Shown here one piece after another: positions 5,317 to 21,081 of a DNA stretch of 64,000 nucleotides (its first letter is position 1; the number at the start of each line of letters is the position of its first letter). This DNA is from a virus (Duplodnaviria > Heunggongvirae > Uroviricota > Caudoviricetes): the IMG/VR virus record IMGVR_UViG_2541047857_000009; one strand, given 5' to 3'. The position numbers and the translations under genes were made by a program. The notes beneath the pieces are model-generated. The model was not told where the DNA came from and ran no database searches. It saw nothing but the letters and a program-made list of their open reading frames with translations.

Positions 5317-5319
5317 AAA

Positions 5320-8110: not shown

Positions 8111-8325
8111 AAAAAATCCTCTTGTGATTCAGCACAGCCCACTCAGCTTCGAATGGACTGGAATAAATCTTTTTTTCGCTTTGCCATAATTGCCGCTCTC
8201 CCTGAGCCCGCCTATGGTCCGACGCATGGTTTACTGTCGCGCCGTTCGACTGACCGAATCTCCACTTCGCCGCTGGCTAACTTCGCTCAGCTGTCGATGT
8301 TTCGTTTCGATGGGCTAACAATAGC

Positions 8326-8380
8326 TAAAGCGATTATTTCAGTCAATCGCCAAAACGATATTTATCATCGATAAAGTGAT
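8326..8380. promoter_or_regulatory. OL-like operator region
   Basis: GCGATT-N9-AATCGC and CGAT-N7-ATCG palindromes sharing the ATCGC half-site with OR. Confidence 0.4.
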
Positions 8381-8483
8381 AATTCATTGAATGTTAAAGC
8401 GATATTTTTTTTAAATGAAGTGGAAAAAAGTGATGTTGAAGGCGGTTTGATGGGAGCGAATTGGAGGTAGTAGATGGAGGTAT

Positions 8484-8506
8484 AAAAAAACCGGCTTTCG
8501 CCGGTT
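8484..8506 (-). terminator. rho-independent terminator ending the cI-lipoprotein operon
   Basis: CCGGC-tttc-GCCGG hairpin plus T7 on minus strand, 6 nt after lipoprotein stop. Confidence 0.65.
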
Positions 8507-8512
8507 GGTTAA

Positions 8513-8989
8513 TCAGTTGCAGTTAACTTTCCTGCCTACGAAGATCAAGTCTCCGTACTCGTCATTGGTATTCTTAAACCTAAGAACCTGTCCATTACGG
8601 ATAAAGGCCCAGTAGAGTTGCTTACCTGTGTATCCGCCATAAGAATTTTTTGCGTTCACGAAAACACACGTTGAGTAACCGTAAACAAAGTTCCTGTTCT
8701 CAACCATAACCTCTTTGCGGAGTGGAGAGAAGTCGCTGAATTTCGCGGAATCAGGATCCTTTAAGGCATCCTTGATTGTTTCCTGAACCAGCTCTTTATA
8801 GTTCTTTGGCTTTTCACCGACATCGGCTGTTTCAAGATTGATATTTCTAACCTTCTCGGCAAACTCGGCATCATGTTTTTTAGCCTCAGCCATCTTCTGA
8901 TCGTAATCAGAAGCAATACGGGCATAAGGTGGTTGCGCACACGCGCTGAGCAATGCAGAGGCGATAACTACAGCTGCTAATTTTTTCAT
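8513..8989 (-). CDS. lipoprotein (moron co-transcribed with cI)
   Basis: 158 aa; signal peptide with lipobox LLSAC; lower GC than flanks. Confidence 0.6.
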   Translation of the reverse strand: MKKLAAVVIASALLSACAQPPYARIASDYDQKMAEAKKHDAEFAEKVRNINLETADVGEKPKNYKELVQETIKDALKDPDSAKFSDFSPLRKEVMVENRNFVYGYSTCVFVNAKNSYGGYTGKQLYWAFIRNGQVLRFKNTNDEYGDLIFVGRKVNCN

Positions 8990-9024
8990 CTTCCCATCCC
9001 AGAGTAATTACTGTGTAAATTTTG

Positions 9025-9723
9025 TTATGCGAATCTTTTATAATCGACTGACTGTCTCAGCAGTACTTTAGCCATGACGTAGAACGCGTCCTCATCTTCA
9101 GGCTCGACGTACCATTTTTCGTAAATCGGGTTATCGGATATTACTGCCAGCCTGTCTCGCTGCATCTGCAGGCGCTTAACGTGCAGTGTCTTCCCAAATA
9201 CAAAGACGTATACACCGTCACCATCAAAGTGCGTAACACCGGTATCAACGAAGATCTGATCACCTGGTGAAATAGTGCCGTCCATGCTGTCACCATTAAC
9301 TGTGATCACTTTGACATGCGCAGCTGGACGATTGCCGAACAAGGCTCGCGCCTGCTCAGTCGTGTATTCAATGGCTCGGATAGTTTCAATGAAATCGCTG
9401 GTGACAATGCTGCCCGGCCCAGCGCTGGCTTTAACGTCGAGTACATCCACGCGGTAAATCCCATTCAGTGACGGCTTAACCTGGTATAGCGCAGACGGTT
9501 CTCTTGCGCTACTTGAAGCCATTTCCCCTTCACCAGTAGACAGCCACTCCGGCCGCACACCCAGAACAGAGGCAATCTCAACAGTTTTACGGGAGCCGTT
9601 CGCTTCCTTGAGTAGCTTATTGACGCTGGACTGAGCCATGCCGACATCTTTGGCTAACCGGCCCTGTGTATATCCAGCATATTTCATTGCCTGCGCCAGG
9701 CGCTCCGAGAATCCCATATTCAC
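9025..9723 (-). CDS. cI-like repressor (HTH + S24 LexA-like peptidase)
   Basis: N-terminal HTH; C-terminal VNGDSM serine and HVKRLQ lysine of Ser-Lys dyad. Confidence 0.8.
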   Translation of the reverse strand: MNMGFSERLAQAMKYAGYTQGRLAKDVGMAQSSVNKLLKEANGSRKTVEIASVLGVRPEWLSTGEGEMASSSAREPSALYQVKPSLNGIYRVDVLDVKASAGPGSIVTSDFIETIRAIEYTTEQARALFGNRPAAHVKVITVNGDSMDGTISPGDQIFVDTGVTHFDGDGVYVFVFGKTLHVKRLQMQRDRLAVISDNPIYEKWYVEPEDEDAFYVMAKVLLRQSVDYKRFA

Positions 9724-9748
9724 CTCTGTTAATGACTCCTTTAACTCT

Positions 9749-9790
9749 ATCGCTCAAGCGATTATTTAGCAAAAAATCGCCTATGCGATT
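9749..9790. promoter_or_regulatory. OR-like operators between cI and cro
   Basis: Perfect palindromes ATCGCTCAAGCGAT and AATCGC-CTAT-GCGATT. Confidence 0.5.
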
Positions 9791-9844
9791 GACATTCGCT
9801 AAAGTGATAACCATAATCGCTTTAAACTGATAGCTGAGGTGATT

Positions 9845-10096
9845 ATGAAGACCCCAACAGTAGAGAAGAACTCCGCAGTAGAGAAAGCGATTGCCATCGC
9901 TGGCAGCCAGAAAGAACTGGCAAAACGTTGCGGTAAAGCCCAGTCCACTATCTGCGACTGGCTTAACGGAAAGAAACGCATCTCCCCAGTTCACGTTCCT
10001 GAGCTGGTGAAAGCGGTTGGTGGTGAAATCCAGGCTCATGAATTCCGCCCGGACCTGCCTTCCATCTTTCCACACCCTGACAACCATGCCGCTTAA
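9845..10096 (+). CDS. Cro-like HTH regulator
   Basis: Divergent from cI; GSQKELAKRCGKAQSTICDWLNG HTH; GAGG RBS. Confidence 0.65.
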   Translation: MKTPTVEKNSAVEKAIAIAGSQKELAKRCGKAQSTICDWLNGKKRISPVHVPELVKAVGGEIQAHEFRPDLPSIFPHPDNHAA

Positions 10097-10125
10097 CGGC
10101 GGCCCTAACCACGAAAGGGAAAGCA

Positions 10126-10692
10126 ATGCATTCACTTGCGTATCAACAGAGTACCGGACTTGAACAACGTCCGTTGATTTCGATTTATCAAAGTGTTCCG
10201 CGTAATAACCGTAAGCTAACTCGAATACGGGAGGCAGTTAAGGCCTGGCAAAAAGCTACGCCGGGCCAGTCTCAGGTTCACATTTCTCAGCTGGTTGCGA
10301 AAGAGTGGCTGGCGCGCGGCGGGAAGGGGTTGTTACTGGCAGGTTCTGAACACAACACGAAGCAGAACTTCTTCCGGATGATTAACGATCCGGGCCCGAA
10401 GAACGACAAGGGGTTGATGCTACTGATCCCCGTCATTATCGACGTGATGGCGCGGGATAACGAGAAAGTGGCGAGAGAGTTCGGTCTGGTCGCAAAGACT
10501 GAGGCCGAACTGATAGCCGAGGCCATGAAAGAGTGCACTGAAGCGCATCAGGCGAAGTTACTTGGTCAGCCGATACAACGCCTTGAGAAAGAGGTGAGAG
10601 AAGCTGCTGAAGCACTTCTGCGCTTTCTGCCCACTGAATCAATCGCCGCGGTGGTGACAAGTCTGGCCGCTATGGCGCCGGGAGTTATGTGA
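10126..10692 (+). CDS. hypothetical regulator at the cII position
   Basis: 188-aa ORF immediately after cro. Confidence 0.35.
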   Translation: MHSLAYQQSTGLEQRPLISIYQSVPRNNRKLTRIREAVKAWQKATPGQSQVHISQLVAKEWLARGGKGLLLAGSEHNTKQNFFRMINDPGPKNDKGLMLLIPVIIDVMARDNEKVAREFGLVAKTEAELIAEAMKECTEAHQAKLLGQPIQRLEKEVREAAEALLRFLPTESIAAVVTSLAAMAPGVM

Positions 10693-10928
10693 TGGGAAGT
10701 ATCAAAAACGGCGAAAGCCAGTCTGCTCGAACAGAACTGGCCTTCAGATGCAAATCGTGTGCACTCATTGCAGGAGGAATAATGGCAAAAAATCCACGCT
10801 ATTACCATACCGCTGTACATAAAAACATAACCCGCGACCGCTTCATCCGCTCGGTTAACCCGATTGTGGCAGAGAAGATGCGCGCCATCCTGGAAGAACT
10901 GAAACGTAAGGAGAGTGGCCGTGGGTAA
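10689..10928 (+). CDS. hypothetical protein
   Basis: 79-aa ORF. Confidence 0.3.
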   Translation: MMGSIKNGESQSARTELAFRCKSCALIAGGIMAKNPRYYHTAVHKNITRDRFIRSVNPIVAEKMRAILEELKRKESGRG

Positions 10929-11820
10929 CGTATCCAATTTAGCCGAAGCCAGAGAGGCCAGAAGGCTCCAGAAACCGCGCACGAATGACGGTAAGGGGTT
11001 TGCCTTGCTGCACCGTAAAATTATGGATGTGCCGTTCTACAAGGACGCTGAGGCGGCTCATTTATGGGTTCACCTGCTCCTGCGCGCTAATCATGAACAG
11101 ACACTGGTATCGACTGATGTCGGCGATGTGATCTGCGAGCGCGGAGAGTTCATTACCGGGCGAAACACGCTGGCAATGGAAACGGGTTTGACCGCTGATC
11201 GCGTTAAATCACTGCTCCGTAAATTCCAGAACCTGGGCATGATCACCACCAAATCGAACAACCGTTTTACTGTTCTAAAAGTGGTCAAATATGACGAATA
11301 TCAGTCAAATTTTTGTCCAGCCGATGTCCAGCCAGTGTCCAGCGCAAACGCAGCTATATCAATGCCTGCGGAGGCGGAGTGTCCAGCCGATGTCCAGCCA
11401 GTGTCCACAGATAACAATATATTAAATAACTTACTACCTAACGGTAGTAAGTATGTCGCAAATGACCAGAAACCCGCTGAAGAGAAAAAGTCCCGTTTGT
11501 CATGCGATGAAGTATGGCAATGCCTGAAAGACGAACTGCCTGAAGCCCGGGGATGGAGATGCCTCACTGATGAGCGACGCAATCTGATCCGCACCTTCTG
11601 GGGTAAGGCTAACAAAATTGCCCGCAACCTGGACGGCAAGCCGATGGATATGGACGGTTTCAGAAGCTATCTGCGCTACATCGCTCAGAACTGCCGCTGG
11701 ATGCTTGAAGACCGACCAGACCAGAAATCCGGGAAGACCTGGCGCCGCATGAAATTCGATAAGTTCCTGACCGAAAAGCTCTACATCGAAGTGCGCGAAG
11801 GGGATCGTGATGACCGCTGA
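10915..11820 (+). CDS. replication initiator (lambda O-like) containing the origin
   Basis: AAGGAG RBS then GTG; iterons plus AT-rich inverted repeat inside the gene, as in lambda O. Confidence 0.6.
   Translation: MAVGNVSNLAEAREARRLQKPRTNDGKGFALLHRKIMDVPFYKDAEAAHLWVHLLLRANHEQTLVSTDVGDVICERGEFITGRNTLAMETGLTADRVKSLLRKFQNLGMITTKSNNRFTVLKVVKYDEYQSNFCPADVQPVSSANAAISMPAEAECPADVQPVSTDNNILNNLLPNGSKYVANDQKPAEEKKSRLSCDEVWQCLKDELPEARGWRCLTDERRNLIRTFWGKANKIARNLDGKPMDMDGFRSYLRYIAQNCRWMLEDRPDQKSGKTWRRMKFDKFLTEKLYIEVREGDRDDR
11314..11451. repeat. origin-like iterons (six 11-bp TGTCCAGCC repeats in two triplets) plus AT-rich inverted repeat
   Basis: Repeats at 11314, 11325, 11336, 11380, 11391, 11402; ACTTACTACC/GGTAGTAAGT inverted repeat 11428-11451. 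Confidence 0.65.
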
Positions 11821-13243
11821 TTTCATGGCTGTACCACAAAACCTCGAAGCAGAGCAGAGCGTTATCGGTGGCCTGCTGCTGGATGATGACAACAGCGAGC
11901 GAGTCCAGAAGGTTCTGGCGATGCTCAAGCCTGAATCGTTCTACAGCCGACCTCACCAGCTGATCTTTGCCGAGATGCGCCAGATGTTCCGCGACAACAA
12001 GCCAGTCGATGGTCTGACATTGTTCGACGCGCTCGAAGGCAAAGGGCTCGCGGAGCAGGTAGGTGGCTTTGCTTACCTGGCGGAGATCGCCAAGAACACT
12101 CCCAGCGCTGCAAACATCGTGGCATACGCTGCGTCAGTCCGGGAAGCCGCAATGGAGCGCTACGGTATCAGCCGCCTGACCGAAGCTACTGAGCTGCTGT
12201 ATTCCCGCAATGGCATGAGCGCCACGCAGAAGTACGAGGCCATTCAGGGTATTTTCACCCAGCTCGCAGACCATTCAAAAACCGGTAGTCGCCGTGGGTT
12301 GCGGTCGTTCGGCGAGGTTATGGATGACTGGGTAGCAGATCTGGAGAAACGCTTTGACCCTTCAGGCGAACAGCGCGGCATGAGCACCGGCATCCCGTCA
12401 CTCGACCGGCTGCTGGCGCCGAAAGGTCTGGTTAAAGGCTCTCTGTTCGTGATTGGCGCAAGGCCAAAGATGGGCAAGACAACCCTGTACGGTCAGATGG
12501 CGATCAACTGCGCGGTTCGTGAGAAAAAGCCAGCGCTGATGTTCAGCCTCGAAATGCCGGGCGACCAGATCCTCGAAAAACTGGTTGGTCAGAGGTCTGG
12601 AGTTAACCCGAGCATTTTTTACATGCCAGCCACGGATGACGCCGATGACCAGTACCAGGGCGATTACGACGGCGACTTTAAGAAGGCGATCGCCACCGCC
12701 GGGCGATTGAGTGAAATCGACATGCTGTACATCGACGATACTCCTGGCCTGTCACTGGCGCACATCGTTAGCGAAAGCCGCCGAATCAAGCGCGAGAAGG
12801 GCTGCGTAGGAATGATTCTGGTTGACTACCTGACTCTAATGACCGCCGAAAAAGCCGACCGTAATGACCTGGCCTACGGGATGATCACCAAAGGTCTGAA
12901 GAATCTCGCCAAAGAGCTTGGCTGCGTCGTCGTGCTGCTGACCCAGCTCAACCGCGAACTGGAGAAGCGAGTGAATAAACGCCCGTTGCCGAGCGATTCC
13001 CGCGACACAGGGCAGATTGAGCAGGACTGCGACTACTGGGTTGGTATCCACCGGGAAGGTGCTTTCGATGACAGCGTGCCGCCGGGAGAAACCGAGTTAA
13101 TCCTGAGACTCAACCGCCACGGCAGCACCGGAACGGTTTATTGCAATCAGATCAACGGGGCAATTTACGACACAGACCAGCAGGCCGCCGCCGCAGAACG
13201 CCGCGGGCGCGAGCAGCAGCCGAAAAAGAAAGGGGGCTTCTGA
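11807..13243 (+). CDS. DnaB-like replicative helicase
   Basis: 478 aa; Walker A GARPKMGKTT and DnaB-family C-terminal domain. Confidence 0.8.
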   Translation: MMTADFMAVPQNLEAEQSVIGGLLLDDDNSERVQKVLAMLKPESFYSRPHQLIFAEMRQMFRDNKPVDGLTLFDALEGKGLAEQVGGFAYLAEIAKNTPSAANIVAYAASVREAAMERYGISRLTEATELLYSRNGMSATQKYEAIQGIFTQLADHSKTGSRRGLRSFGEVMDDWVADLEKRFDPSGEQRGMSTGIPSLDRLLAPKGLVKGSLFVIGARPKMGKTTLYGQMAINCAVREKKPALMFSLEMPGDQILEKLVGQRSGVNPSIFYMPATDDADDQYQGDYDGDFKKAIATAGRLSEIDMLYIDDTPGLSLAHIVSESRRIKREKGCVGMILVDYLTLMTAEKADRNDLAYGMITKGLKNLAKELGCVVVLLTQLNRELEKRVNKRPLPSDSRDTGQIEQDCDYWVGIHREGAFDDSVPPGETELILRLNRHGSTGTVYCNQINGAIYDTDQQAAAAERRGREQQPKKKGGF

Positions 13244-13542
13244 TGAAAGGCAAACAGGCAATTCTTCGTTATCTCGAAACGCACCGGACCTTCACTGCGA
13301 AGGATGTGGCCACAGAGTGTGGCATGACCATCAACTGCATCACGAAGAACGCTATCGATCTGGAGCGGGCCCGGAAGATTGTGCGCGTGAGCAAGGTCTG
13401 GCGAACGGTGACTTATCGCCAGGCGACGCCGGAAGAGCAGGACGGCACCGCGCGCAGCTGCACCAACGGAATATTTCAGGGGTGCCGGAACAGTCCTGCG
13501 ATGAAGCGAGTATTGATGGTTTGGGGGAGGGAAGGGGTATGA
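13243..13542 (+). CDS. hypothetical protein
   Basis: ORF, internal ATG start abutting helicase stop. Confidence 0.4.
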   Translation: MKGKQAILRYLETHRTFTAKDVATECGMTINCITKNAIDLERARKIVRVSKVWRTVTYRQATPEEQDGTARSCTNGIFQGCRNSPAMKRVLMVWGREGV

Positions 13543-13736
13543 AAATCGAAGATATCAAAAACGTTGCGGTGTTCTTCAATTTTAACGGTAAAACGGTGGC
13601 TTTGCGCATGGATCCTGAGCAGAAGCGAATCGTCGCATTAATGGCGCTTAACACGGCTGATGCCCGGGCAGAACTGATTGAGGTGCCGCACATGACTTTA
13701 CCAGCAGACCCAGCCATGCAGGAGGCCGCCCAATGA
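13539..13736 (+). CDS. hypothetical protein
   Basis: 65-aa ORF with GGGG-containing RBS. Confidence 0.35.
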   Translation: MKIEDIKNVAVFFNFNGKTVALRMDPEQKRIVALMALNTADARAELIEVPHMTLPADPAMQEAAQ

Positions 13737-14338
13737 GCAACATCAACAAACAGGAGCTGCGTGAAGCGGCGGAGAGAGCAGAATCCGATAGTTGGGGTTA
13801 TGATCGCGATGAATTCAATGAGGCTCTAACCCCGTCCACCGTGCTGGCACTGCTAGATGAGTTGGAAGCCAAAGATTCCATGATAGCAGCACAACAACAT
13901 GAGATCCGTACGTTACTGAATGCGCTTGAGGGCAGACCATGCCCTAAATGCAACGACACAGGCATGGCTGATAGTGGCGGTACGCAACCCTGGGGCGAGC
14001 CAATAAGCGTTCCATGTGATTGCGCCGCCCCGCCATCGCCGGTAGCTGTGCCTGAAGGATACAGGTTGCAGCCAATTTCTGAATATGACGCAATGTGCGC
14101 CGCCATGCTTCAGGGTGCCGAAAACGCCGAGTCGCGCTGCACCATCAAGACCGCGCCAGCACTGGATTCTTTGACAAAAAATGCCGAGTCGCGCTGCGGC
14201 AACTCTCCGGTGATTCAGGATGGTTGGGTGCTGGTGCCAGAAGAACCCACCCATGAAATGCTTGAGGCTGGTGATGAACAATTCGGAACTTACGATGTGT
14301 ATCGCCGGATGATAGCAGCATCACCGCAGCAGAAGTGA
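13733..14338 (+). CDS. Ead/Ea22-like protein
   Basis: 201 aa; N-terminal coiled coil; internal NAESRC repeat. Confidence 0.4.
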   Translation: MSNINKQELREAAERAESDSWGYDRDEFNEALTPSTVLALLDELEAKDSMIAAQQHEIRTLLNALEGRPCPKCNDTGMADSGGTQPWGEPISVPCDCAAPPSPVAVPEGYRLQPISEYDAMCAAMLQGAENAESRCTIKTAPALDSLTKNAESRCGNSPVIQDGWVLVPEEPTHEMLEAGDEQFGTYDVYRRMIAASPQQK

Positions 14339-14371
14339 TCTATAATCCCCTCAAATAACCGAGGGGGTTTT

Positions 14372-14554
14372 ATGTCTAACGAAGAAATGACTCCAGCAGA
14401 AAAATATAAAGCTTCAATGAAAAGACATAAAAAGTTCTGGAGTAAATCACAAATTGCAAATGCGAAACGGTTTGATGCTGGAGAGGTTGAATCTGTTGAT
14501 GGTTTTAGATCTCCTTATGAGACCAGAAAGAAGAGAGGGAGGACTGCTGACTAA
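14372..14554 (+). CDS. hypothetical protein
   Basis: 60-aa ORF in AT-richer nin-region segment. Confidence 0.3.
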
Positions 14555-14808
14555 TGTCTGACTGGAACATTGCAGCAAAGCCGCAGGAAGAACGCGACAA
14601 GGTTAATGTTGACCTGGCAGCCTCCGGCGTGGCCTACAAAGAGCGCCTGAATATGCCGGTTATCGCCGAGCAGGTAGCTCGTGAGCAACCAGAGCATCTA
14701 CGAGAGTATTTCATGGATCGCGTGCGGCACTATCGCGAGCAGAGCGTTGCATTGCCTAAGGCATCTGATCCTCGCTACATTGAAATGACTGAGCAAAATG
14801 CAAAATAA
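14554..14808 (+). CDS. hypothetical protein
   Basis: 84-aa ORF. Confidence 0.35.
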
Positions 14809-14824
14809 ATTTTAGGAGATTCAA

Positions 14825-15085
14825 ATGGAAAATAGCATGAGCATCACAACGATTCTTGAAAGAGAAAGGGAGCTTGATGATCTTGTTAAGGTGTGCCTCG
14901 ATGAGCTTGAGGTGATTGACATCCATGGACAGGTTTACTCAATTCCTCTTTCCCACCTAACGAACGCAGAGCAGGTGGTACATTGGGTCTGGAAGATTGC
15001 TGAGAGAGGTGATTTCGCCATGGATGTTGTTCGTAAATTTACTGAAGTTGCGTCCCATCATGTGGGGTTTGACGCTAAAAAATAA
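14825..15085 (+). CDS. hypothetical protein
   Basis: 86-aa ORF with AGGAG RBS. Confidence 0.35.
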   Translation: MENSMSITTILERERELDDLVKVCLDELEVIDIHGQVYSIPLSHLTNAEQVVHWVWKIAERGDFAMDVVRKFTEVASHHVGFDAKK

Positions 15086-15155
15086 ATCGCCAAGGACCGA
15101 TTTAATAGCTATACACATGTTTTACATTCCGCTCGCATCTTAACCAAATCTTTCT

Positions 15156-15164
15156 TGGTATAAT
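15156..15164 (+). promoter_or_regulatory. extended -10 promoter (TGgTATAAT) for the zinc-ribbon moron
   Basis: Perfect TATAAT with TG at -15/-14, 40 nt upstream of ATG 15204. Confidence 0.45.
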
Positions 15165-15203
15165 GATTTTTTACAGGCGAATGACGTGTGAGGTCCGGGA
15201 TTT

Positions 15204-15401
15204 ATGACTTGTGAAGTATGTAACAAACAACCCCTTGGACGAAGGGACCCGCCTCTTCCATGCATGGTCTTGCAAGGCGATAAATCCGTTAACTTCAGCC
15301 ATCACGGACGCGAAGCAAACGAGCGTTATTACAAATGCTCGGAATGCGGTCATGAGTGGATGAGAGAGACAGGAAATTGCGGCGAAGGCTGGATTCCTTA
15401 A
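15204..15401 (+). CDS. small zinc-ribbon protein
   Basis: 65 aa with CEVC...CSEC Cys pairs; own promoter. Confidence 0.4.
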   Translation: MTCEVCNKQPLGRRDPPLPCMVLQGDKSVNFSHHGREANERYYKCSECGHEWMRETGNCGEGWIP

Positions 15402-15604
15402 CTATATATTGTCGCTATTCGCAAATTGATTTTCTCAAATCATCCCGCCATAATTAAGTCGCAGTCGGCCTGAACACCCGATTGTGACTTCTGCGCATTT
15501 AAGGGGACTTAAATGCGACCACAATCTGAAATCCTCACCTTGTCACAGATGCAGAAATGCACCTGCGATTTTCTGCATTCTGCGGTTTCCGTTAAGGAGG
15601 CCGT

Positions 15605-16060
15605 ATGACTCTTCCAGTAGACGGCATCAAGCTCCATCGCGGCAACTTCGCAGCCATCGGTCAGCAGATTCAGCCCTTGCTTGATGCCGGGCAATGCTTT
15701 CGCCTTCAGGTTAAGCCGTGGCGCGAGAAGCGCAGCCTGTCGCAGAACGCTCTCAGCCACATGTGGTACACGGAAATCAGCGAATGCCTCATCACCCGCG
15801 GCAAGACCTTCGCTACGCCTGAATGGGTCAAAGACGCGATGAAGCACACCTATCTCGGCTACGAAAGCAAGGACAGGGTAGACGTCGTGTCCGGAGAGGT
15901 AACCACGGTCCAATCCCTCCGCCATACGTCAGAGCTGGAAACCGGCGAGATGTACATCTTCCTGTGCAAAGTCGAAGCCTGGGCGATGAATATTGGATGC
16001 CACCTGACCATTCCGCAGAGCTGCGAGTACCAGCAGCTGCGCGATAAGCAGGAGGCCTGA
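15605..16060 (+). CDS. ybcN: YbcN-like (NinB-position) protein
   Basis: RSLSQNALSHMWYTEIS and C-terminal CEYQQLRDKQEA match DLP12 YbcN as recalled. Confidence 0.55.
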   Translation: MTLPVDGIKLHRGNFAAIGQQIQPLLDAGQCFRLQVKPWREKRSLSQNALSHMWYTEISECLITRGKTFATPEWVKDAMKHTYLGYESKDRVDVVSGEVTTVQSLRHTSELETGEMYIFLCKVEAWAMNIGCHLTIPQSCEYQQLRDKQEA

Positions 16061-16230
16061 TGTCTACTCCACTTTCCCGCGTCATCACCAACGAAATCTT
16101 CCGCGTTCCGGCGCGCCGCAAGCGTAAGCCAGCGGTTAAGCCGTCCGACATCCCGACTTTCAAGGACTACACCGCCCGCCTGGTCGATCAGAAATGGCTG
16201 CGTCTCGCGGCGAGGAGAGCGCATGGCTAA
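16060..16230 (+). CDS. ninE: NinE-like protein
   Basis: 56 aa; RRKRKP...SD..TF.DY.A.L.D.KWLR pattern as in lambda NinE; ATGA overlap. Confidence 0.45.
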   Translation: MSTPLSRVITNEIFRVPARRKRKPAVKPSDIPTFKDYTARLVDQKWLRLAARRAHG

Positions 16231-16513
16231 TTTATGCAAAGCCGCACGCGGCCGCGAATGTCAGGTGCGGATCCCCGGCGTCTGTAATGGAAATCCTGAA
16301 ACAACTGTACTGGCGCATATTCGGCTTGCTGGTCTGTGTGGTACGGGAATCAAGCCGCCTGACCTGATCGCCACAATCGCATGCAGCAGCTGCCACGACG
16401 AGATTGATCGACGCACCCGTCTGGTCGATGCGGAATATGCAAAGGAGTGCGCGCTGGAGGGCATGGCCCGCACGCAGGTTATCTGGCTGAAAGAGGGGCT
16501 CGTGAAATCATGA
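16223..16513 (+). CDS. ybcO: DUF1364 / YbcO-like protein
   Basis: [24 protein letters not shown]...CSSCHD close to DLP12 YbcO as recalled. Confidence 0.55.
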
Positions 16514-16872
16514 ACCAATACCGTATCTCATTGCCATGGCCGCCGAGCAACAACCGCTACTACCGGCATAACCGCGGGCGCACGCATATCAGCGTAGAAG
16601 GGCAGGCGTACCGCGACAGTGTCGCCAGAATCATCAAAGACTCAATGCTGGATATCGGCCTGTCCACGCCGGTGAAAATTCGCATCGAGTGCCACATGCC
16701 GGATCGCCGCCGCCGTGACCTGGACAACCTGCAAAAGGCAGCGTTCGACGCGCTGACTAAATCAGGGTTCTGGCTCGATGACCAGCAGGTTGATTACTAC
16801 AGCGTGAAGAGAATGCCTGTCGTCAAAGGCGGAAAGCTTGAACTGACAATCACTGAACTGGAGGCAGCATGA
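16510..16872 (+). CDS. rusA: RusA Holliday-junction resolvase
   Basis: 120 aa with RRRDLDN catalytic motif. Confidence 0.75.
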
Positions 16873-17009
16873 AGCCAGAAGCGCTCGAGATAATCCGCAC
16901 TCGTTGGCAGCGACTCCGTATTTACCGCCGCCCTGGATCCGTGCTGGTTGACTACCGAATCCTTCGAAACTTCGTCCGCATTTATCATCAAGCAGGAGCC
17001 ACACAATGA
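16869..17009 (+). CDS. YlcG-like small protein
   Basis: 46-aa ORF, ATGA-coupled to rusA. Confidence 0.3.
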
Positions 17010-17695
17010 ACAGTCAGCAACTGGAATACGTACGTCAGCAGCTCATTGTGGCGACCGCCGATCTGAGCGGGGCGACGAAAGGCCAACTGGTAGCTTTCGC
17101 CGAGAACGCGCAATTCACCGCTACAGCGCGTAGCCGGGGCCGGAAGAAAGTTTATGATGTGCAGAAAAAGCGCATGGTTAACCCTGATAGTCCGCCGATG
17201 AGCGGCAGCCAGTCCCGCGCCAAGGGATCGTCAATCGCTCTGGTGTGCCCGGTAGAGTTCATGACAGCATCATGGCGCCGCGCTGTCTTGTCTCTTGACG
17301 ACCATCAGAAAGCGTGGCTGCTGTGGAACTACAGTGAGAACATCCGCTTCGAGTACCAGGTGGCGATCACCCATTGGGCGTGGTCAGAATTCCGGGAGCA
17401 ACTTGGCGCGAAGAAGGTGGCTGGCAAGACGATGGAGCGCCTGAAGAAGCTTATATGGCTGGCGGCGCAGGACGTTAAAGCGGAGCTGGCGGGGCGCGAG
17501 ACGTACGAATATCAGGCGCTGGCGGAACTAGCGGGTGTTGCAAAATCAACCTGGACAGAGACGTATCTGCCTCACTGGCTGGCAATGCGTAACAGCTTTA
17601 AGCGACTCGATAGCGGTGCGCTTATCTCAGTAACGCGATCACGTTCACAACAAAAGGCGACAAATTTGGATGTAAGTCTTGCAAAACCGAACTGA
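17006..17695 (+). CDS. putative late antiterminator (Q position)
   Basis: 229-aa ORF between nin genes and lysis cassette, followed by terminator-like hairpin; family not verified. Confidence 0.4.
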   Translation: MNSQQLEYVRQQLIVATADLSGATKGQLVAFAENAQFTATARSRGRKKVYDVQKKRMVNPDSPPMSGSQSRAKGSSIALVCPVEFMTASWRRAVLSLDDHQKAWLLWNYSENIRFEYQVAITHWAWSEFREQLGAKKVAGKTMERLKKLIWLAAQDVKAELAGRETYEYQALAELAGVAKSTWTETYLPHWLAMRNSFKRLDSGALISVTRSRSQQKATNLDVSLAKPN

Positions 17696-17761
17696 AACGC
17701 ATATATTTCATGTAAATATGATATCGTCGCCATAGCTTTGATTGTCGACTGAATATAAAAA

Positions 17762-17790
17762 CCTCGCCACCGTGCGGGGTTTTGTCGTTT
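17762..17790 (+). terminator. tR'-like terminator downstream of Q-like gene
   Basis: CCTCGC/GCGGGG stem (one G.U) plus T-rich tract. Confidence 0.4.
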
Positions 17791-17801
17791 CTGGAGCCAA
17801 C

Positions 17802-18128
17802 ATGTCCGAGAAAATCACAGAGCAATTGGTCTTTCGCCCTGCCAGTGAAAAACTGACAAAGGATCTGGATGGTGAGTGGGTGATTCTGCTCAATCCATGC
17901 GATGGCTGGCATATTGCCCATGTGGTGGCGCTGGAAGAGGATGGCGAGGTCTACCATGTCGGAGCATATCAATTTGCAGGCGGCGAGTTCGAGCCGCACG
18001 AATTTTATGTTGCCTGGGCTTTGCTTCCAGACTCAATAAAACTGTCTGATCGCTTTGAAGATCAGAGGATGAGTCAAGAAATTAGAGACGCTCGCTGGCG
18101 TGAATGGACAGCCAGCATCAATAAGTGA
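17802..18128 (+). CDS. hypothetical late moron protein
   Basis: 108 aa with GGAG RBS; sits between Q and lysis genes. Confidence 0.4.
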   Translation: MSEKITEQLVFRPASEKLTKDLDGEWVILLNPCDGWHIAHVVALEEDGEVYHVGAYQFAGGEFEPHEFYVAWALLPDSIKLSDRFEDQRMSQEIRDARWREWTASINK

Positions 18129-18143
18129 TTTCAAACCAAATTC

Positions 18144-18218
18144 GCCGGTCTAGTTCAGTGGCAGAACGGCAGCCTTGTAAGCTGCGCGTCAGAGGTTCGA
18201 TTCCTTTGCCCGGCACCA
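18144..18218 (+). tRNA. tRNA-Thr (anticodon UGU)
   Basis: Cloverleaf read by hand: acceptor 6/7 pairs, D-arm GTTC/GAAC, anticodon stem GCAGC/GCTGC with loop CTTGTAA, T-loop TTCGATT, CCA encoded. Confidence 0.7.
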
Positions 18219-18275
18219 GAACCCACTGCCTGGGACCCTTCGGCCATAGAGCCGGCATTGCCTTACCCTCACATT

Positions 18276-18298
18276 GCCAGCCTGTCGCTGGCTTTTTT
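18276..18298 (+). terminator. rho-independent terminator after tRNA
   Basis: GCCAGC-ctgtc-GCTGGC plus T6. Confidence 0.7.
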
Positions 18299-18382
18299 AT
18301 TTTCAGGCTCCGGGAACCATCATCGACACGCCTACTTGTTAAATCGTCCCGAGGGCCTGAACCAACTACACACGGAATAAAT

Positions 18383-18784
18383 ATGTCTGAGACCTTCACT
18401 ATCGTAGGCGTTGGTCTTACATCGTCATCAGTCGGTGTAACCTTTGCCACGCTGTTTCCGGAGGCGACTCCAGCAGTGATGCTCGGATCACTCGCCGGAA
18501 CTGCGCTATACGTTCTGACCTCAGATCCCCATCAACTCTGGAAGCAGGCTATCTTTGCGCTGATATCGTTTATCAGTGGCGTGTTCTTCTCCGTACCCAT
18601 GGCGAAAATCATGGCCGGAATCATCAACACGCCGTTAAGCCTGATGAAGCCACCAGCCAGCATTGAGGTATCGCCAGCTGTCGGTGCAATTGTCACTGCT
18701 TCCATTTCCGTGGCAGTCCTGCTGCGTATTCTCCGCAAATCCAAAAGCGGGAAGATGCCGGGGCTGGGGGAGGAAGATAAATGA
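18383..18784 (+). CDS. holin-like membrane protein
   Basis: 133 aa with hydrophobic segments, first gene of lysis cassette. Confidence 0.5.
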   Translation: MSETFTIVGVGLTSSSVGVTFATLFPEATPAVMLGSLAGTALYVLTSDPHQLWKQAIFALISFISGVFFSVPMAKIMAGIINTPLSLMKPPASIEVSPAVGAIVTASISVAVLLRILRKSKSGKMPGLGEEDK

Positions 18785-19056
18785 CATGGCAGCTTCTTCT
18801 GATGGATGCAAACGCCATAGTTTGCCTGTTAATCATGGTCAGGCTGATGTTTTTCCGGAAAGAGGGAAAGCGTCATCGCCTGAGTGTCGCGGTGCTGGCC
18901 TACCTGGTCATACTTGCCGCCGGATTCAACGCCTTCAACATTCTGCTCGGCCACTACGTTCAGGTTAACCTTGGCGACCTGCTGCTGAACTCCGTCATAT
19001 GCATGGCGGTGTGGCTGGCGCGTGGGAACCTGGCGAAGGTCGTTATAACGGAGTAG
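18781..19056 (+). CDS. holin/antiholin-like membrane protein
   Basis: 91 aa, two to three TM segments, overlaps neighbours. Confidence 0.45.
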   Translation: MTWQLLLMDANAIVCLLIMVRLMFFRKEGKRHRLSVAVLAYLVILAAGFNAFNILLGHYVQVNLGDLLLNSVICMAVWLARGNLAKVVITE

Positions 19057-19059
19057 TCC

Positions 19060-19500
19060 ATGCAAACCAGCGAAAAGGGCATTGCCCTAATCAAAGAATT
19101 CGAAGGCTGTAGACTCACTGCTTACCAGGACAGCGTGGGCGTATGGACGATCGGCTATGGCTGGACTCAACCTGTGGATGGAAAACCAATCCGCGCCGGG
19201 ATGACTATCAAGCAGGAAACAGCAGAACGTCTGCTGAAGACCGGGCTGGTCAGCTATGAAAACGACGTGTCCCGCCTGGTTAAAGTCGGCTTGACTCAGG
19301 GGCAATTCGACGCCCTGGTGTCGTTCACGTATAACCTCGGCGCTCGGTCATTGTCGACATCGACACTCCTGCGAAAACTCAATGCCGGTGATTACGCTGG
19401 TGCTGCTGATGAGTTCCCGCGCTGGAACAAAGCAGGTGGCAAAGTCCTGAACGGGCTAACCCGTCGGCGTGAGGCGGAGCGCGCTCTGTTTCTGTCGTGA
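19060..19500 (+). CDS. endolysin (GH24 lysozyme)
   Basis: IKEFEGCRLTAYQD...WTIGYG catalytic region of T4/P22-type lysozymes. Confidence 0.8.
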   Translation: MQTSEKGIALIKEFEGCRLTAYQDSVGVWTIGYGWTQPVDGKPIRAGMTIKQETAERLLKTGLVSYENDVSRLVKVGLTQGQFDALVSFTYNLGARSLSTSTLLRKLNAGDYAGAADEFPRWNKAGGKVLNGLTRRREAERALFLS

Positions 19501-19883
19501 TTAGCGCACTGGTTAAGCGTTACTGGCTGCAACTGATTGTGGTGGCGGTAATCGGCGTGCTGGCGTTCTTCGTGAACCACTACCGCGACAACGCCATTAC
19601 CTACAAAGACCAGCGCGACAAGGCGACGGTCAGGGCAGATACATCGGAGGCGATCACCAGCAACGTGATCACCACGATGAACCTCATCCGTGACATTTCA
19701 CAGGCTACCCAGAATGCAAAGAACGAACTGGCCCATAAAGGCGAAACGCGCATTGTCTACATCAGGCAGGCGCTTGAAGGCGATCCGTGCGCTAACCAGC
19801 TTGTTCCTTCTGCCGCTGCTGACAGCCTGCGGGAATACGCAGACAGTTTACGTTCCGGCCCCGGTGGTTCCGATAAGCGCTGA
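19497..19883 (+). CDS. Rz-like i-spanin
   Basis: N-terminal TM helix then coiled-coil periplasmic domain. Confidence 0.55.
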   Translation: MISALVKRYWLQLIVVAVIGVLAFFVNHYRDNAITYKDQRDKATVRADTSEAITSNVITTMNLIRDISQATQNAKNELAHKGETRIVYIRQALEGDPCANQLVPSAAADSLREYADSLRSGPGGSDKR

Positions 19884-20034
19884 CCTGACAGCTGACACGC
19901 CGATCCCCGGAATTACGGTTCCGTTCACGTGGCAGGCAAGTCTGGAGTTAAACGCTCAGCTCTACACGGCGCTGGGGCAGTGCAATCTGGATAAGGCTGC
20001 GATCAGGAAAATTGAAGAAGCGAGAAAAAAATAA
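19714..20034 (+). CDS. Rz1-like o-spanin lipoprotein (start uncertain)
   Basis: +1 frame overlapping Rz; lipobox LLTAC then Pro-rich segment; TTG start at 19774 also possible. Confidence 0.45.
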   Translation: MQRTNWPIKAKRALSTSGRRLKAIRALTSLFLLPLLTACGNTQTVYVPAPVVPISADLTADTPIPGITVPFTWQASLELNAQLYTALGQCNLDKAAIRKIEEARKK

Positions 20035-20127
20035 ATTGAATTCGAGAAATGAAAGTAGTAAAAGTCAGTCATGCTGTGAGCAGACCAGCTGAAGAGAAAT
20101 CACCAAGTATCAAAAACAAAATTCTGA

Positions 20128-20153
20128 GCCTCGGCAATCGCCGGGGCTTTTTT
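20128..20153 (+). terminator. rho-independent terminator after lysis cassette
   Basis: GCCTCGGC-aatc-GCCGGGGC plus T6. Confidence 0.6.
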
Positions 20154-20306
20154 GTATCCGCATTTCACCGCGCACCGCAGCGCATTCAACCCACGTCGAA
20201 CCATACCCTTTGAAATGAGCCTTTGAGGAAGTCAGTTAGTGCTGGCGAGCCTCGACGGGCTGATTTCCTATGCGGCAAAGGTTCATCTCAAAGAAAGGTA
20301 CACGCT

Positions 20307-20852
20307 ATGACATATCCAACTGTGATCGTGAATGGTGTCTCTGTCCGAGTGGACGAGAAGGGGCGCTATAGCCTGAATGATCTTCATGCCGCCGCTGTCC
20401 TGAAAGGTGAGGCTACTGAGTCACAAAAGCCGGGCAAGTTTATTCGTAGTGCATCAGTAAAGCGTTTCGTTCAGGCGCTGGCAGGCAAAGGACAAAAATG
20501 TCCTTTGGAAGATAACCAGGCACTTAGAGTAATTCGCGGTGGTGACGAGCCCGGCGTATGGGCTGCAGAGCTACTCGCTATTAGATATGCCGCCTGGATT
20601 AAGCCGGAGTTTGAAATCCGCGTTTATGAAACCTTCCGCGAGGCTGTGCTCAACGGTCTTAGCAATATGAACCGACTCAACCGACTTGACCTGCTGATCG
20701 CCAATGAGACCAAAGAGGTCAGCGCATGTGCCCGGGCAATGAATAAGTGGGGCGTCGGTGGTCGCAAGAAGCTTCTCAATTGCGCTCGTGAGCGGATCGT
20801 CAGCCAGATGGACCCTGACATGGTCACGCTTATGGAAGCGAAAGCAGGGTAG
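20307..20852 (+). CDS. KilA-N domain protein
   Basis: N-terminal VRVDEKGRYSLNDLHAAA...KPGKFIRS pattern typical of KilA-N. Confidence 0.5.
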   Translation: MTYPTVIVNGVSVRVDEKGRYSLNDLHAAAVLKGEATESQKPGKFIRSASVKRFVQALAGKGQKCPLEDNQALRVIRGGDEPGVWAAELLAIRYAAWIKPEFEIRVYETFREAVLNGLSNMNRLNRLDLLIANETKEVSACARAMNKWGVGGRKKLLNCARERIVSQMDPDMVTLMEAKAG

Positions 20853-21081
20853 CCAACGCAGAATTGCGTCGGCAAATAGCGGCATTACAGAAGCTCTTCA
20901 CTGAGGGGCTTCGATAATGACAAGCAGAGGTAAATTATGATTGGCACCCTAACCTATAAAATGACACTTCGCCCATACATGAAGCCCTTGCTGTTTGTCG
21001 CGGCAATGACTAACTGGCACTGGTTAACCGATATCTGCTTCAAGAAAGAGATTGTCGCAGAAGGCGCGAAGGTGGAGCTAA

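What the first reader, a model, noticed from the sequence alone, without database searches (positions are those of the whole stretch)
17696..18298. Late-expressed moron plus tRNA-Thr at the Q-to-lysis junction (the classical stx-type cargo site)
Downstream of the Q-like gene is a hairpin plus T-tract (tR'-like), then a 108-aa ORF of unknown function, then a well-formed tRNA-Thr(UGU) with its own terminator, then the holin. In Stx phages this junction carries tRNAs and the toxin genes under Q-dependent readthrough. The unknown ORF would be expressed only on induction.
Basis: partly seen in the sequence, partly recalled or inferred. Interest (0 to 1): 0.45.

Follow-up and report, generated by a model that had tools for sequence, protein, structure and literature searches.

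The report
Prophage late-operon cargo: small gene plus tRNA
Between the late-gene switch (Q) and the lysis genes of an E. coli prophage sit a short leader RNA, a conserved 108-residue gene of unknown function and a phage-type threonine tRNA; all are real, but this is an ordinary swappable cargo slot and carries no toxin.

Summary
Downstream of a phage-82-type Q gene (17006-17695) lie:
- a promoter-like site and a 73-nt leader ending in a hairpin plus T tract (17711-17783);
- a 108-aa ORF (17802-18128);
- tRNA-Thr(UGU) (18144-18218);
- a second terminator (18276-18292);
- two holin-family genes, a lysozyme and a spanin.

New points:
- The "tR'-like hairpin" is the 3' end of a homolog of the Salmonella sRNA IsrJ (Rfam, 64.9 bits). 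It is best read as the pR'-tR' leader transcript.
- ORF108 is a real gene (pN 0.10 against pS 0.76). Its family spans Enterobacterales, matches phrog_17248 and has no Pfam, NCBIfam or PADLOC match. The confident model is a small beta-barrel with no significant structural match.
- In 29 of 30 related places examined, this family sits between Q and the lysis genes. It follows Q of all three Q families, usually right after the terminator.
- Close relatives carry tRNA-Asn (or Asn and Gly) in exactly the ORF108 slot, so it is exchangeable cargo.
- It has no room for its own promoter, so it is not a strict moron, and nothing resembles a toxin.
- The tRNA differs from host thrU at positions 39 and 41, flanking the PARIS AriB cleavage site. 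This is a lead only.

ORF108's function remains unknown. Interest is modest.

The parts
17006..17695 (+). Antiterminator Q gene, phage-82 family (PF06323)
   Evidence: Pfam E 1.1e-83 and phrog_304. PF06323 is the Q82 family according to PMC9388147. Preceded by NinB, YbcO, RusA and YlcG.
17679..17707 (+). Late-promoter-like site (pR' analogue): TTGCAA, 17 nt, TATATT, overlapping the 3' end of Q
   Evidence: Consensus scan, 9 of 12 matches. TTGCAA and the ATATTT core of the -10 are invariant in five related prophages (A5). Activity is inferred, not shown.
17711..17783 (+). IsrJ-family leader RNA, ending in the tR'-like intrinsic terminator (stem-loop 17758-17783, T tract to about 17792)
   Evidence: Rfam RF01393, 64.9 bits (gathering score 37), E 1.1e-10, full model length. 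The same element follows Q in L001, L002 and L003. The predicted fold contains the terminator hairpin.
17802..18128 (+). ORF108: 108-aa acidic cytoplasmic protein of unknown function (phrog_17248); GGAG at 17793-17796
   Evidence: phrog_17248 E 1.7e-66 over its full length. 69 homolog clusters. pN 0.10 against pS 0.76 versus Kosakonia. AlphaFold2 pLDDT 91.7. No Pfam, NCBIfam or PADLOC match.
18144..18218 (+). tRNA-Thr(UGU), phage type, CCA encoded, 15 nt after the ORF108 stop codon
   Evidence: ARAGORN and Rfam tRNA, 59.1 bits. It is 100% identical in ENT1, E. coli M37H and Citrobacter-type prophages whose flanks are only about 80% identical. It differs from host thrU.
18258..18365 (+). Conserved boundary block containing the second intrinsic terminator (stem 18276-18292 plus T run) and a conserved stretch of about 70 nt upstream of the holin
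   Evidence: Terminator scan. Alignment A4 across five loci with different cargo and different holins; two compensatory pair changes in the Kosakonia hairpin.
18383..19056 (+). Two tandem holin-family genes (18383-18784 PF16931; 18781-19056 PF05449)
19060..20034 (+). Rest of the lysis cassette: lysozyme 19060-19500, Rz-like spanin 19497-19883, embedded Rz1-like ORF ending at 20034

Best explanation
The interval is the head of the late operon of a lambdoid prophage in E. coli that uses a phage-82-family Q protein.

Proposed layout and action:
- A constitutive late promoter overlaps the end of Q. From it RNA polymerase makes a leader of about 73 nt that stops at an intrinsic terminator (tR'). 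In the lysogen this would give an IsrJ-like small RNA.
- After induction, Q makes RNA polymerase terminator-resistant. Transcription then continues through a two-part cargo cassette, through a second conserved terminator, and into holin, lysozyme, spanin and the morphogenesis genes.
- The first cargo part is ORF108, whose ribosome-binding site starts 10 nt after the terminator stem. The second is tRNA-Thr(UGU), 15 nt after the ORF stop codon. Host tRNA-processing enzymes would cut the tRNA out of the transcript.
- The cargo slot is bracketed by the two terminators. Any leak through tR' in the lysogen could therefore express the cargo but not the lysis genes.

What ORF108 and the tRNA are:
- ORF108 is a cytoplasmic, acidic, small beta-barrel protein. 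Its family has no Pfam, NCBIfam or PADLOC match and habitually occupies this post-Q position. I take it to be a phage-benefit accessory protein that binds a host or competitor macromolecule during lytic growth. I do not take it to be a toxin or a conversion factor.
- The tRNA supplements or replaces host tRNA-Thr(UGU) during late protein synthesis.

Shown here: the sequence elements, their order, their homology, the conservation of position, and the exchangeability of the cargo.

Inferred: promoter activity, Q-dependence, leakiness of tR', and the biochemical roles of ORF108 and the tRNA.
For: - Order and identity of the parts.
- Q and the IsrJ-like element are conserved together as one unit in E. 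coli prophages.
- Short pR'-tR' transcripts in lysogens are established for lambda, 21, phi80, 82, P22, Stx phages (StxS) and Gifsy-1 (IsrK) (PMC7547250; PMC4825925).
- Exchangeable cargo: Enterobacter phage ENT1 and E. coli M37H match the window up to 17794 and again from 18136. In between they carry tRNA-Asn-Gly or tRNA-Asn.
- ORF108 is a real gene. Homologs occur across Enterobacterales, synonymous sites are saturated while pN is 0.10-0.40, and the structure model is confident.
- Position is conserved. In 17 of the 18 loci the homolog lies in a prophage between Q and lysis genes or next to one of them; the Gilliamella locus L021 is unclear. The same holds in 12 of 12 further places.
- The upstream Q belongs to PF06323, PF06530 or PF03589, usually 85-145 nt away. 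A terminator hairpin, T tract and GGAG directly precede the start codon (A2).
- The second terminator is conserved whatever the cargo, the holin type or the Q family.
- The tRNA is 100% conserved where its flanks are about 80% identical, and its stems show compensatory changes between lineages.
- ORF108 has pI 4.7, net charge about -10 and a hydrophilic N-terminus.
Against: - No expression data of any kind are available.
- The promoter is a 9-of-12 consensus match, and as many such sites are expected by chance in this region. Its support comes from conservation and position only.
- The tR' T tract in the window is interrupted (TTTTGTCGTTT), so its efficiency is unknown.
- In Salmonella Gifsy-1 the named IsrJ lies after anrP, not directly after Q; IsrK follows Q there. 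Equating the IsrJ family with a pR' leader is therefore my inference.
- The family gave no tblastn match in 50,697 deposited phage genomes. It is known only from prophages, some of which may be defective.
Confidence: 0.75

Rival explanations
1. ORF108 is a classical moron or lysogenic-conversion gene. It would be transcribed autonomously in the lysogen and benefit the host, as a virulence or fitness factor like the cargo of Stx phages.
For: - It is present or absent between identical flanks in related prophages.
- Its GC content is slightly lower than the prophage mean, 0.495 against 0.536.
- It is bracketed by two terminators.
- It is found only in prophages, not in deposited phage genomes.
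Against: - Only 10 nt separate the tR' stem from the ribosome-binding site, and no promoter-like site was found there.
- The downstream terminator is shared with relatives that lack the ORF.
- The protein has no signal peptide or membrane segment.
- It shows no similarity to any toxin or effector family.
- The family occurs in plant, insect and environmental Enterobacterales, so it is not linked to pathogens.
Confidence: 0.1
2. The tRNA-Thr(UGU) is a counter-defence tRNA. It would be a variant that escapes host or satellite anticodon-stem nucleases such as PARIS AriB, keeping late translation going when host thrU is cleaved. ORF108 may be a partner anti-defence protein.
For: - AriB cleaves E. 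coli tRNA-Lys(UUU), Thr(UGU) and Asn(GUU) between positions 40 and 41, within the sequence U36-A-A-U-C|A41. [quoted passage not shown]
- Positions 36-41 of the window tRNA read UAAGCU. Host thrU reads UAAUCA and T5 tRNA-Thr reads UAAGCA, so the window tRNA shares U39G with T5 and also differs at 41.
- The slot-mates in close relatives are tRNA-Asn(GUU). They read UAACCG against host UAAUCC.
- The tRNA is perfectly conserved where its flanks have diverged.
- ORF108 is small and acidic, as many anti-defence proteins are.
Against: - Any tRNA that is not a copy of thrU would differ in the anticodon stem, so the substitutions are necessary for the idea but not diagnostic.
- No tRNA-Lys(UUU), the main AriB target, accompanies it in any array seen.
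- A sister lineage keeps U39 and C40, reading UAAUCU.
- Late, Q-dependent expression may be too late for a defence that is triggered early.
- No assay has been done.
Confidence: 0.2
3. The tRNA simply compensates for codon supply. It would raise the capacity to decode ACA (and ACG or ACU) for the burst of late structural-protein synthesis. This is the traditional explanation for tRNAs at the Q-S junction of lambdoid phages.
For: - ACA makes up 16% of Thr codons and 10.9 per 1000 codons in the 24 late genes, and 3 of 3 Thr codons in ORF108.
- From my own knowledge, E. coli K-12 uses about 7-8 ACA per 1000 codons and has a single thrU gene.
- The tRNA is placed at the start of the late operon.
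Against: - The enrichment is modest, roughly 1.4-fold, and early genes show nearly the same usage at 9.2 per 1000.
- Only 8 of 5,426 complete E. coli genomes carry this tRNA, so related prophages do without it.
- Relatives carry different tRNA sets with similar late genes.
Confidence: 0.4
4. ORF108 acts on or with the adjacent tRNAs, for example as a tRNA-binding, protecting or modifying factor. Its small beta-barrel resembles Sm/Hfq and Tudor-type RNA- or peptide-binding folds.
For: - tRNA genes lie within about 1.3 kb downstream of the homolog in the window, the Citrobacter-type prophages, Serratia PL17, Hafnia and several Xenorhabdus loci.
- The ORF108 and tRNA-Thr pair keeps the same 15-nt spacing in the window and in L038-L040.
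- The top weak fold matches include Hfq/Sm and RimP.
Against: - The tRNA species differ between loci (Thr, Met/Gly, Phe).
- Many homolog loci have no tRNA (L004, L005, L016, L041, L044), and many tRNA arrays have no ORF108 (L001, L002, L034-L037).
- tRNAs are common at this junction anyway.
- The protein is strongly acidic, which argues against RNA binding.
Confidence: 0.07

Closest known systems
Lambdoid late-operon control region: pR', Q-utilisation site, tR' and short leader RNA (lambda 6S RNA; StxS of Stx phages; IsrK of Gifsy-1)
   Same: - A Q gene is followed directly by a sigma-70-type promoter, a short leader and an intrinsic terminator, then by late genes on the same strand.
- The leader is about 73 nt. 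StxS-short is 74 nt, but that RNA is the 3' piece that RNase E cuts from a 258-nt PR' transcript (PMC7547250), so the similar length need not reflect a similar origin. IsrK is 77 nt (PMC2330248).
   Different: - The sequence family here is IsrJ (RF01393), not StxS or IsrK.
- No experiment ties this copy to Q.
- A second conserved terminator lies between the cargo and the holin.
IsrJ sRNA of Salmonella Typhimurium Gifsy-1 (Rfam RF01393; Padalon-Brauch 2008, PMC2330248)
   Same: Full-length covariance-model match well above the gathering score. It has the same two hairpins and the same terminator.
   Different: - In Gifsy-1, isrJ lies after anrP within isrK-orf45-anrP-isrJ, not directly after antQ.
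- The reported HilA dependence and the effect on SPI-1 effector translocation are specific to Salmonella and cannot be carried over to this copy.
Stx-phage cargo site (Q, tRNAs ileZ-argN-argO, stxAB, S in 933W-type phages; from my own knowledge and PMC7547250)
   Same: Same position, with tRNA genes plus a non-essential protein gene under Q-dependent read-through.
   Different: - There is no AB5 toxin, no signal peptide and no similarity to any toxin.
- The tRNA species differs (Thr, against Ile and Arg in Stx phages).
- The Q family is that of phage 82.
[quoted passage not shown]
   Same: Same anticodon as a prime AriB target, and the same U39G change next to the cleavage site as T5 tRNA-Thr.
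   Different: - The sequences are otherwise unrelated.
- This tRNA is carried by a temperate phage and placed in the late operon.
- No tRNA-Lys accompanies it.
- Resistance to AriB has not been tested.
DUF551 (PF04448) small domains of phage early-region proteins
   Same: - It is a small beta-rich phage domain, found either alone or at the C-terminus of longer early-region proteins.
- Several DUF551 proteins are among the top, non-significant, Foldseek matches in the viral structure library.
- Remote relatives of ORF108 lie in early-left small-gene arrays next to xis and int.
   Different: - No Pfam DUF551 match for any of 38 + 68 family members, even at E up to 10 for the first set.
- The family motifs FRPASE, NPCDGWH and AWALLP are its own.

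Membership tests
Q-dependent late operon of lambdoid phages | A Q antiterminator gene of a recognised family lies immediately upstream on the same strand | tested here: met
   PF06323, E 1.1e-83. This is the Q82 family according to PMC9388147.
Q-dependent late operon of lambdoid phages | A sigma-70 promoter followed by an intrinsic terminator lies between Q and the late genes | tested here: met
   TTGCAA, 17 nt, TATATT at 17679-17707, and a terminator at 17758-17783. Both are conserved in relatives. This is sequence evidence only.
Q-dependent late operon of lambdoid phages | A Q-binding element and a sigma-dependent promoter-proximal pause; terminator read-through that depends on Q | not testable with these tools
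   The initial transcribed block is nearly invariant in relatives. No Q82 binding-site model or transcription assay was available.
Q-dependent late operon of lambdoid phages | Lysis and morphogenesis genes lie downstream on the same strand | tested here: met
   Holins, lysozyme and spanin at 18383-19883, followed by long + strand ORFs from 21304 to 42741.
Moron (extra transcription unit in a phage genome, in the sense of Hendrix and Juhala; definition from my own knowledge) | The gene is present between the same flanking sequences that are adjacent, or otherwise filled, in related phages | tested here: met
   ENT1 and M37H share the flanks up to 17794 and from 18136 onward. They carry tRNA genes in place of the ORF.
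Moron (extra transcription unit in a phage genome, in the sense of Hendrix and Juhala; definition from my own knowledge) | It has its own promoter and its own terminator, so it is transcribed independently in the lysogen | tested here: not met
   No promoter-like site lies in the 18 nt between the tR' stem and the ATG. The downstream terminator follows the tRNA and is conserved in relatives that lack the ORF. The promoter scan is consensus-based only.
Moron (extra transcription unit in a phage genome, in the sense of Hendrix and Juhala; definition from my own knowledge) | Its base composition deviates from the surrounding genome | tested here: inconclusive
   GC content is 0.495 against 0.536 for the prophage, a small difference over 327 nt.
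IsrJ sRNA family (Rfam RF01393) | The covariance-model score is at or above the curated gathering score | tested here: met
   64.9 bits against 37, covering model positions 1-75 of 75.
IsrJ sRNA family (Rfam RF01393) | A stable Hfq-binding transcript with a role in SPI-1 effector translocation | not testable with these tools
   This is known only for Salmonella (PMC2330248). The host here is E. coli.
Functional elongator tRNA-Thr | A cloverleaf recognised by two independent detectors, with anticodon UGU | tested here: met
   ARAGORN and Rfam tRNA at 59.1 bits. Compensatory changes occur in the anticodon and acceptor stems between lineages. A U6.C67 mismatch is present in all lineages.
Functional elongator tRNA-Thr | ThrRS identity elements G1:C72, C2:G71, G35 and U36 (from my own knowledge of E. 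coli tRNA identity) | tested here: met
   Read directly from the sequence GCCGG...CUUGUAA...CCGGCACCA. Aminoacylation itself was not tested.
Stx-type toxin cargo | A secreted AB5 toxin, or any recognisable toxin or effector gene, lies between Q and the holin | tested here: not met
   ORF108 has no match in Pfam or NCBIfam, only a non-significant PADLOC hit (E 0.021), and no significant match in the PDB. Its N-terminus is hydrophilic.
PARIS-evading viral tRNA (T5 type) | It has the same anticodon as an AriB target and carries substitutions at or beside the 40|41 cleavage site | tested here: met
   Positions 36-41 read UAAGCU, against host UAAUCA and T5 UAAGCA. The criteria come from PMC12409363. 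This condition is necessary but not sufficient.
PARIS-evading viral tRNA (T5 type) | It resists AriB cleavage and rescues infection or toxicity | not testable with these tools
   This needs an in vitro cleavage assay and a plating assay.
DUF551 (PF04448) | A match to the Pfam profile | tested here: not met
   No match for any of 38 close members at E up to 10, or for 68 remote members at E up to 0.01. Only weak fold-level resemblance was seen.

The most novel reading that the evidence does not exclude
ORF108 and tRNA-Thr(UGU) form a two-part counter-defence cassette at the very start of the late operon. The tRNA would be a nuclease-resistant replacement for host thrU, which is a prime target of PARIS AriB. 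ORF108 would be the founding member of an unannotated small beta-barrel family, with motifs NPCDGWH and AWALLP, that neutralises a host or rival-element factor. Selection would have placed it directly after tR' behind all three unrelated Q families.
Probability: 0.15. Interest if true: 0.6.

Novelty: new member of a known kind. Interest (0 to 1): 0.3.

Why it matters
The architecture itself is textbook lambdoid biology: Q, leader RNA, terminator, cargo, lysis genes. Three things are of some use.

- It gives a genomic rationale for the IsrJ sRNA family. In phage-82-type late regions the family sits exactly where a pR'-tR' leader is expected. This adds to the view that antiterminated phage promoters are a source of small RNAs.
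- It defines an uncharacterised protein family. The family keeps one position, first gene after tR', behind three unrelated antiterminator families across Enterobacterales. That makes it a clean candidate for functional screening.
- It points to a temperate-phage tRNA-Thr(UGU), with tRNA-Asn(GUU) in sister phages, whose anticodon stem differs from the host tRNAs at the site cut by PARIS. Testing it would extend the 'viral tRNAs as anti-defence' idea from T5-like virulent phages to prophages.

None of this is established here.

Tried and rejected
- **Family and structure searches for ORF108.** Pfam, NCBIfam and PADLOC gave nothing significant. A profile search of PDB sequences gave only noise.
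- **DUF551 membership.** Not supported by the Pfam profile.
- **Profile search of 1.84 billion representative proteins.** It found 98 relatives, none with a Pfam domain. The contexts of four of them are early-left small-gene arrays, which do not reveal a function.
- **Phage genomes.** tblastn of ORF108 against 50,697 phage records found no match.
- **Second copy in the window.** An HMM search of all window ORFs found none.
- **Weak second isrJ hit at 20079-20150.** At 22.6 bits it is only the terminator after Rz1.
- **Sigma-dependent pause element.** A -10-like TATGAT in the leader looked like one, but the base that creates it is not conserved in relatives, so I make no claim.
- **Codon-usage explanation for the tRNA.** Only a modest ACA enrichment was found.
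- **Covariation count on the tR' hairpin.** Not run, because the hairpins are shifted by one column in alignment A2. Compensatory changes are described by eye only.
Full report
**What is in the sequence**

The + strand reads NinB (15605-16060), YbcO (16223-16513), RusA (16510-16872), a 46-aa YlcG family ORF (16869-17009) and a 229-aa Q protein (17006-17695). The Q protein matches PF06323 at E 1.1e-83. PF06323 is the phage-82 Q family (PMC9388147).

After the Q stop codon come, in order:
- a promoter-like TTGCAA, 17 nt, TATATT at 17679-17707, overlapping the end of Q;
- a hairpin at 17758-17783 followed by TTTTGTCGTTT;
- GGAG at 17793;
- an ATG at 17802 opening a 108-codon frame that ends at 18128;
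- 15 nt later, a tRNA-Thr(UGU) at 18144-18218 with CCA encoded;
- a second hairpin at 18276-18292 with a T run;
- two holin-family genes (18383-18784, 18781-19056), a lysozyme (19060-19500) and an Rz-like spanin (19497-19883).

**The hairpin belongs to an IsrJ-family RNA**

An Rfam scan of 15000-21000 returned a full-length match to isrJ (RF01393) at 17711-17783. The score is 64.9 bits against a gathering score of 37, E 1.1e-10, and the terminator hairpin forms the 3' end of the match.

The same element follows the Q gene in Enterobacter phage ENT1 and in two E. coli prophages. The end of Q, the promoter hexamers and the first 30 or so transcribed bases are almost invariant among five relatives.

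IsrJ is a 74-nt sRNA found experimentally in Salmonella Gifsy-1 (PMC2330248). In Gifsy-1 it is IsrK that follows antQ directly, and isrJ closes the isrK-orf45-anrP-isrJ unit (PMC4825925).

Short constitutive transcripts from the late promoter that stop at tR' are well documented. Examples are lambda 6S RNA, StxS, IsrK and phages 21, phi80, 82 and P22 (PMC7547250).

I therefore read 17679-17792 as the late promoter, leader and tR' of a phage-82-type late operon, with the IsrJ-like RNA as its terminated product. This rests on position, homology and conservation. No transcript data exist here.

**ORF108 is a real, conserved gene without a known function**

Evidence that it is a gene:
- It matches phrog_17248 (function unknown) over its whole length, E 1.7e-66.
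- A search of 5.8 billion protein clusters gave 69 clusters, all named 'hypothetical'. They come from Escherichia, Salmonella, Enterobacter, Klebsiella, Citrobacter, Raoultella, Kosakonia, Serratia, Pantoea, Erwinia, Hafnia, Xenorhabdus, Providencia and Proteus.
- The alignment shows the blocks FRPASE, NPCDGWH and PHxFYVAWALLP.
- Against ten homologs, synonymous sites are saturated (pS 0.73-1.0) while pN is 0.10-0.40. Against Kosakonia the values are pN 0.10 and pS 0.76.

What the protein looks like:
- It is acidic (pI 4.7, net charge about -10) and hydrophilic at its N-terminus.
- AlphaFold2 with the family alignment gives a confident model, pLDDT 91.7. It is a small beta-barrel of four strands followed by two helices.

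What it does not match:
- The matches are generic Sm/Hfq, Tudor and RimP barrels plus several DUF551 proteins.
- Pfam, NCBIfam and PADLOC give nothing significant.

A profile search of 1.84 billion representatives found 98 relatives. Some carry the domain at the C-terminus of proteins of 150-270 aa, and none has a Pfam domain. Four that I looked up lie in arrays of small early-left genes next to xis and int or methylases. No deposited phage genome encodes a relative.

**Position is the most informative property**

- In the 18 species-representative loci, the homolog lies in a prophage between a Q gene and lysis genes, or next to one of them, in all but the Gilliamella locus L021, where the context is unclear.
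- In 12 further places found through four diverse members, it lies between Q and holin or lysozyme every time.
- The upstream Q belongs to any of the three unrelated Q families. PF06323 occurs in the window, L005, L006, L016 and L038-L040. PF06530 occurs in L004, L019, L020, L041-L043 and L047-L049. PF03589 occurs in L008, L009, L011 and L015.
- Where it directly follows Q, the gap is 85-145 nt. The start codon is preceded by a terminator hairpin, a T tract and GGAG in nearly every locus (alignment A2).

ORF108 is thus a habitual first gene after tR'.

**It is exchangeable cargo**

ENT1 and E. coli M37H align with the window from Q to 17794 (82-84% identity). They align again from 18136 onward (97.5% in ENT1; in M37H the tRNA-Thr is 100% identical). 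Between those points they carry tRNA-Asn-Gly (ENT1) or tRNA-Asn (M37H) instead of the 341-bp ORF108 segment.

Another E. coli prophage has a 157-aa hypothetical gene in the slot. E. coli 20A24 shares the first 9 kb of the prophage at 100% identity but has a different nin, Q and lysis module.

The host is E. coli. Window 46.8-64 kb is 100% identical to strain S88 and others. The exact ORF108 and Q proteins occur side by side in E. coli KTE7.

**The second terminator is a boundary element, not the tRNA's own**

The hairpin at 18276-18292 and about 70 nt after it are conserved upstream of unrelated holins and behind unrelated cargo. This includes Kosakonia, where the Q is of the 21 type and the stem carries two compensatory pair changes.

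The cargo slot is therefore bracketed by tR' and this terminator. My inference is that leakage through tR' in a lysogen could express cargo while the lysis genes stay silent, and that Q-modified polymerase reads through both terminators.

**The tRNA**

- Two detectors agree on it.
- It has the ThrRS identity bases as I know them: G1:C72, C2:G71, G35 and U36.
- It carries a U6.C67 mismatch that is kept in all lineages.
- Its anticodon and acceptor stems show compensatory changes between lineages.
- It is 100% identical in the window, ENT1, M37H and three Citrobacter-type prophages whose flanks are about 80% identical. In those three it follows the ORF108 homolog with the same 15-nt spacing.
- It is not a copy of host thrU.
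- It is rare. Eight of 5,426 complete E. coli genomes and four phage records have it, and in every copy I examined it sits between an antiterminator gene and lysis genes.

Two roles are possible.
- Codon supply is the traditional reading. ACA use in late genes is only modestly raised, at 10.9 per 1000 codons.
- Counter-defence is the alternative. PARIS AriB cuts E. coli tRNA-Lys(UUU), Thr(UGU) and Asn(GUU) between positions 40 and 41 within UAAUC|A, and T5 variants changed around that site neutralise PARIS (PMC12409363).

The window tRNA reads UAAGCU at positions 36-41. Host thrU reads UAAUCA and T5 tRNA-Thr reads UAAGCA. The tRNA-Asn of sister prophages reads UAACCG against host UAAUCC.

This fits a counter-defence role but is weak evidence. 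Any unrelated tRNA would differ there, no tRNA-Lys accompanies it, and one sister lineage keeps UAAUC.

**Comparison with what is known, and verdict**

The arrangement is a standard lambdoid late-control region with cargo, positionally analogous to the Stx site, and it carries no toxin. ORF108 fails the strict definition of a moron because it has no promoter of its own and the downstream terminator is shared. It does meet the looser sense of an exchangeable extra gene.

I file the finding as a new member of a known kind. What it offers is a well-defined unknown protein family with a striking positional preference, a genomic reading of IsrJ-type RNAs as late-operon leaders, and a testable anti-defence hypothesis for the tRNA. 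Interest is modest, at 0.3.

Noticed in passing
window 18258-18365: The second terminator and about 70 nt after it form a block conserved upstream of unrelated holin genes and behind unrelated cargo. It is seen in E. coli, Enterobacter phage ENT1 and Kosakonia, whatever the Q family. The purpose of the part after the hairpin is unknown. A promoter-like TTGCCA, 18 nt, TATTTT overlaps the hairpin.
   Followed up: partly
window 20079-20160 and 20223-20852: A strong terminator follows Rz/Rz1 (fold z-score -2.7; weak isrJ hit of 22.6 bits). It is followed by a KilA-N domain protein. The layout recalls the Gifsy-1 isrK-orf45-anrP-isrJ arrangement.
   Followed up: partly
L038-L040 (Citrobacter koseri-type prophages), positions 2501-2917: The ORF108 homolog (80% aa identity) and a 100% identical tRNA-Thr(UGU) keep the same 15-nt spacing. 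They are joined to three different lysis cassettes. The pair therefore travels as a unit with the phage-82-type Q.
   Followed up: yes
window 18144-18218 and relatives L035-L037: The tRNA keeps a U6.C67 acceptor-stem mismatch in every lineage seen, while other stem positions change in a compensatory way. Its significance is unknown.
   Followed up: partly
L026-L033 (remote relatives of ORF108): The broader domain family occurs in early-left arrays of small genes next to xis and int or DNA methylases. In some proteins it is a C-terminal domain of proteins of 150-270 aa. None has any Pfam annotation.
   Followed up: partly
window 46799-64000: This stretch is 100% identical to E. coli S88 and other strains. 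It is annotated there with an integrase, an exonuclease, DUF968 and an antitermination protein. It may therefore be a second prophage-like region directly next to the prophage studied.
   Followed up: no
window 1-16060 compared with E. coli 20A24 (L022): The first 9 kb of the window are 100% identical to a prophage of E. coli 20A24, whose genes run through a YbcN/NinB-family gene like the window's. Its nin, Q and lysis module is entirely different (serine/threonine phosphatase, NinG, another Q family). This is a clear mosaic joint near 16060.
   Followed up: partly
window 18383-19056: Two holin-family genes of different Pfam families (PF16931, 133 aa; PF05449, 91 aa) lie in tandem with overlapping stop and start codons, ahead of the lysozyme.
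   Followed up: no
L015 3162-3339 (Erwinia amylovora): An Rfam STnc100 sRNA match (65.8 bits) lies directly after the ORF108 homolog.
   Followed up: no
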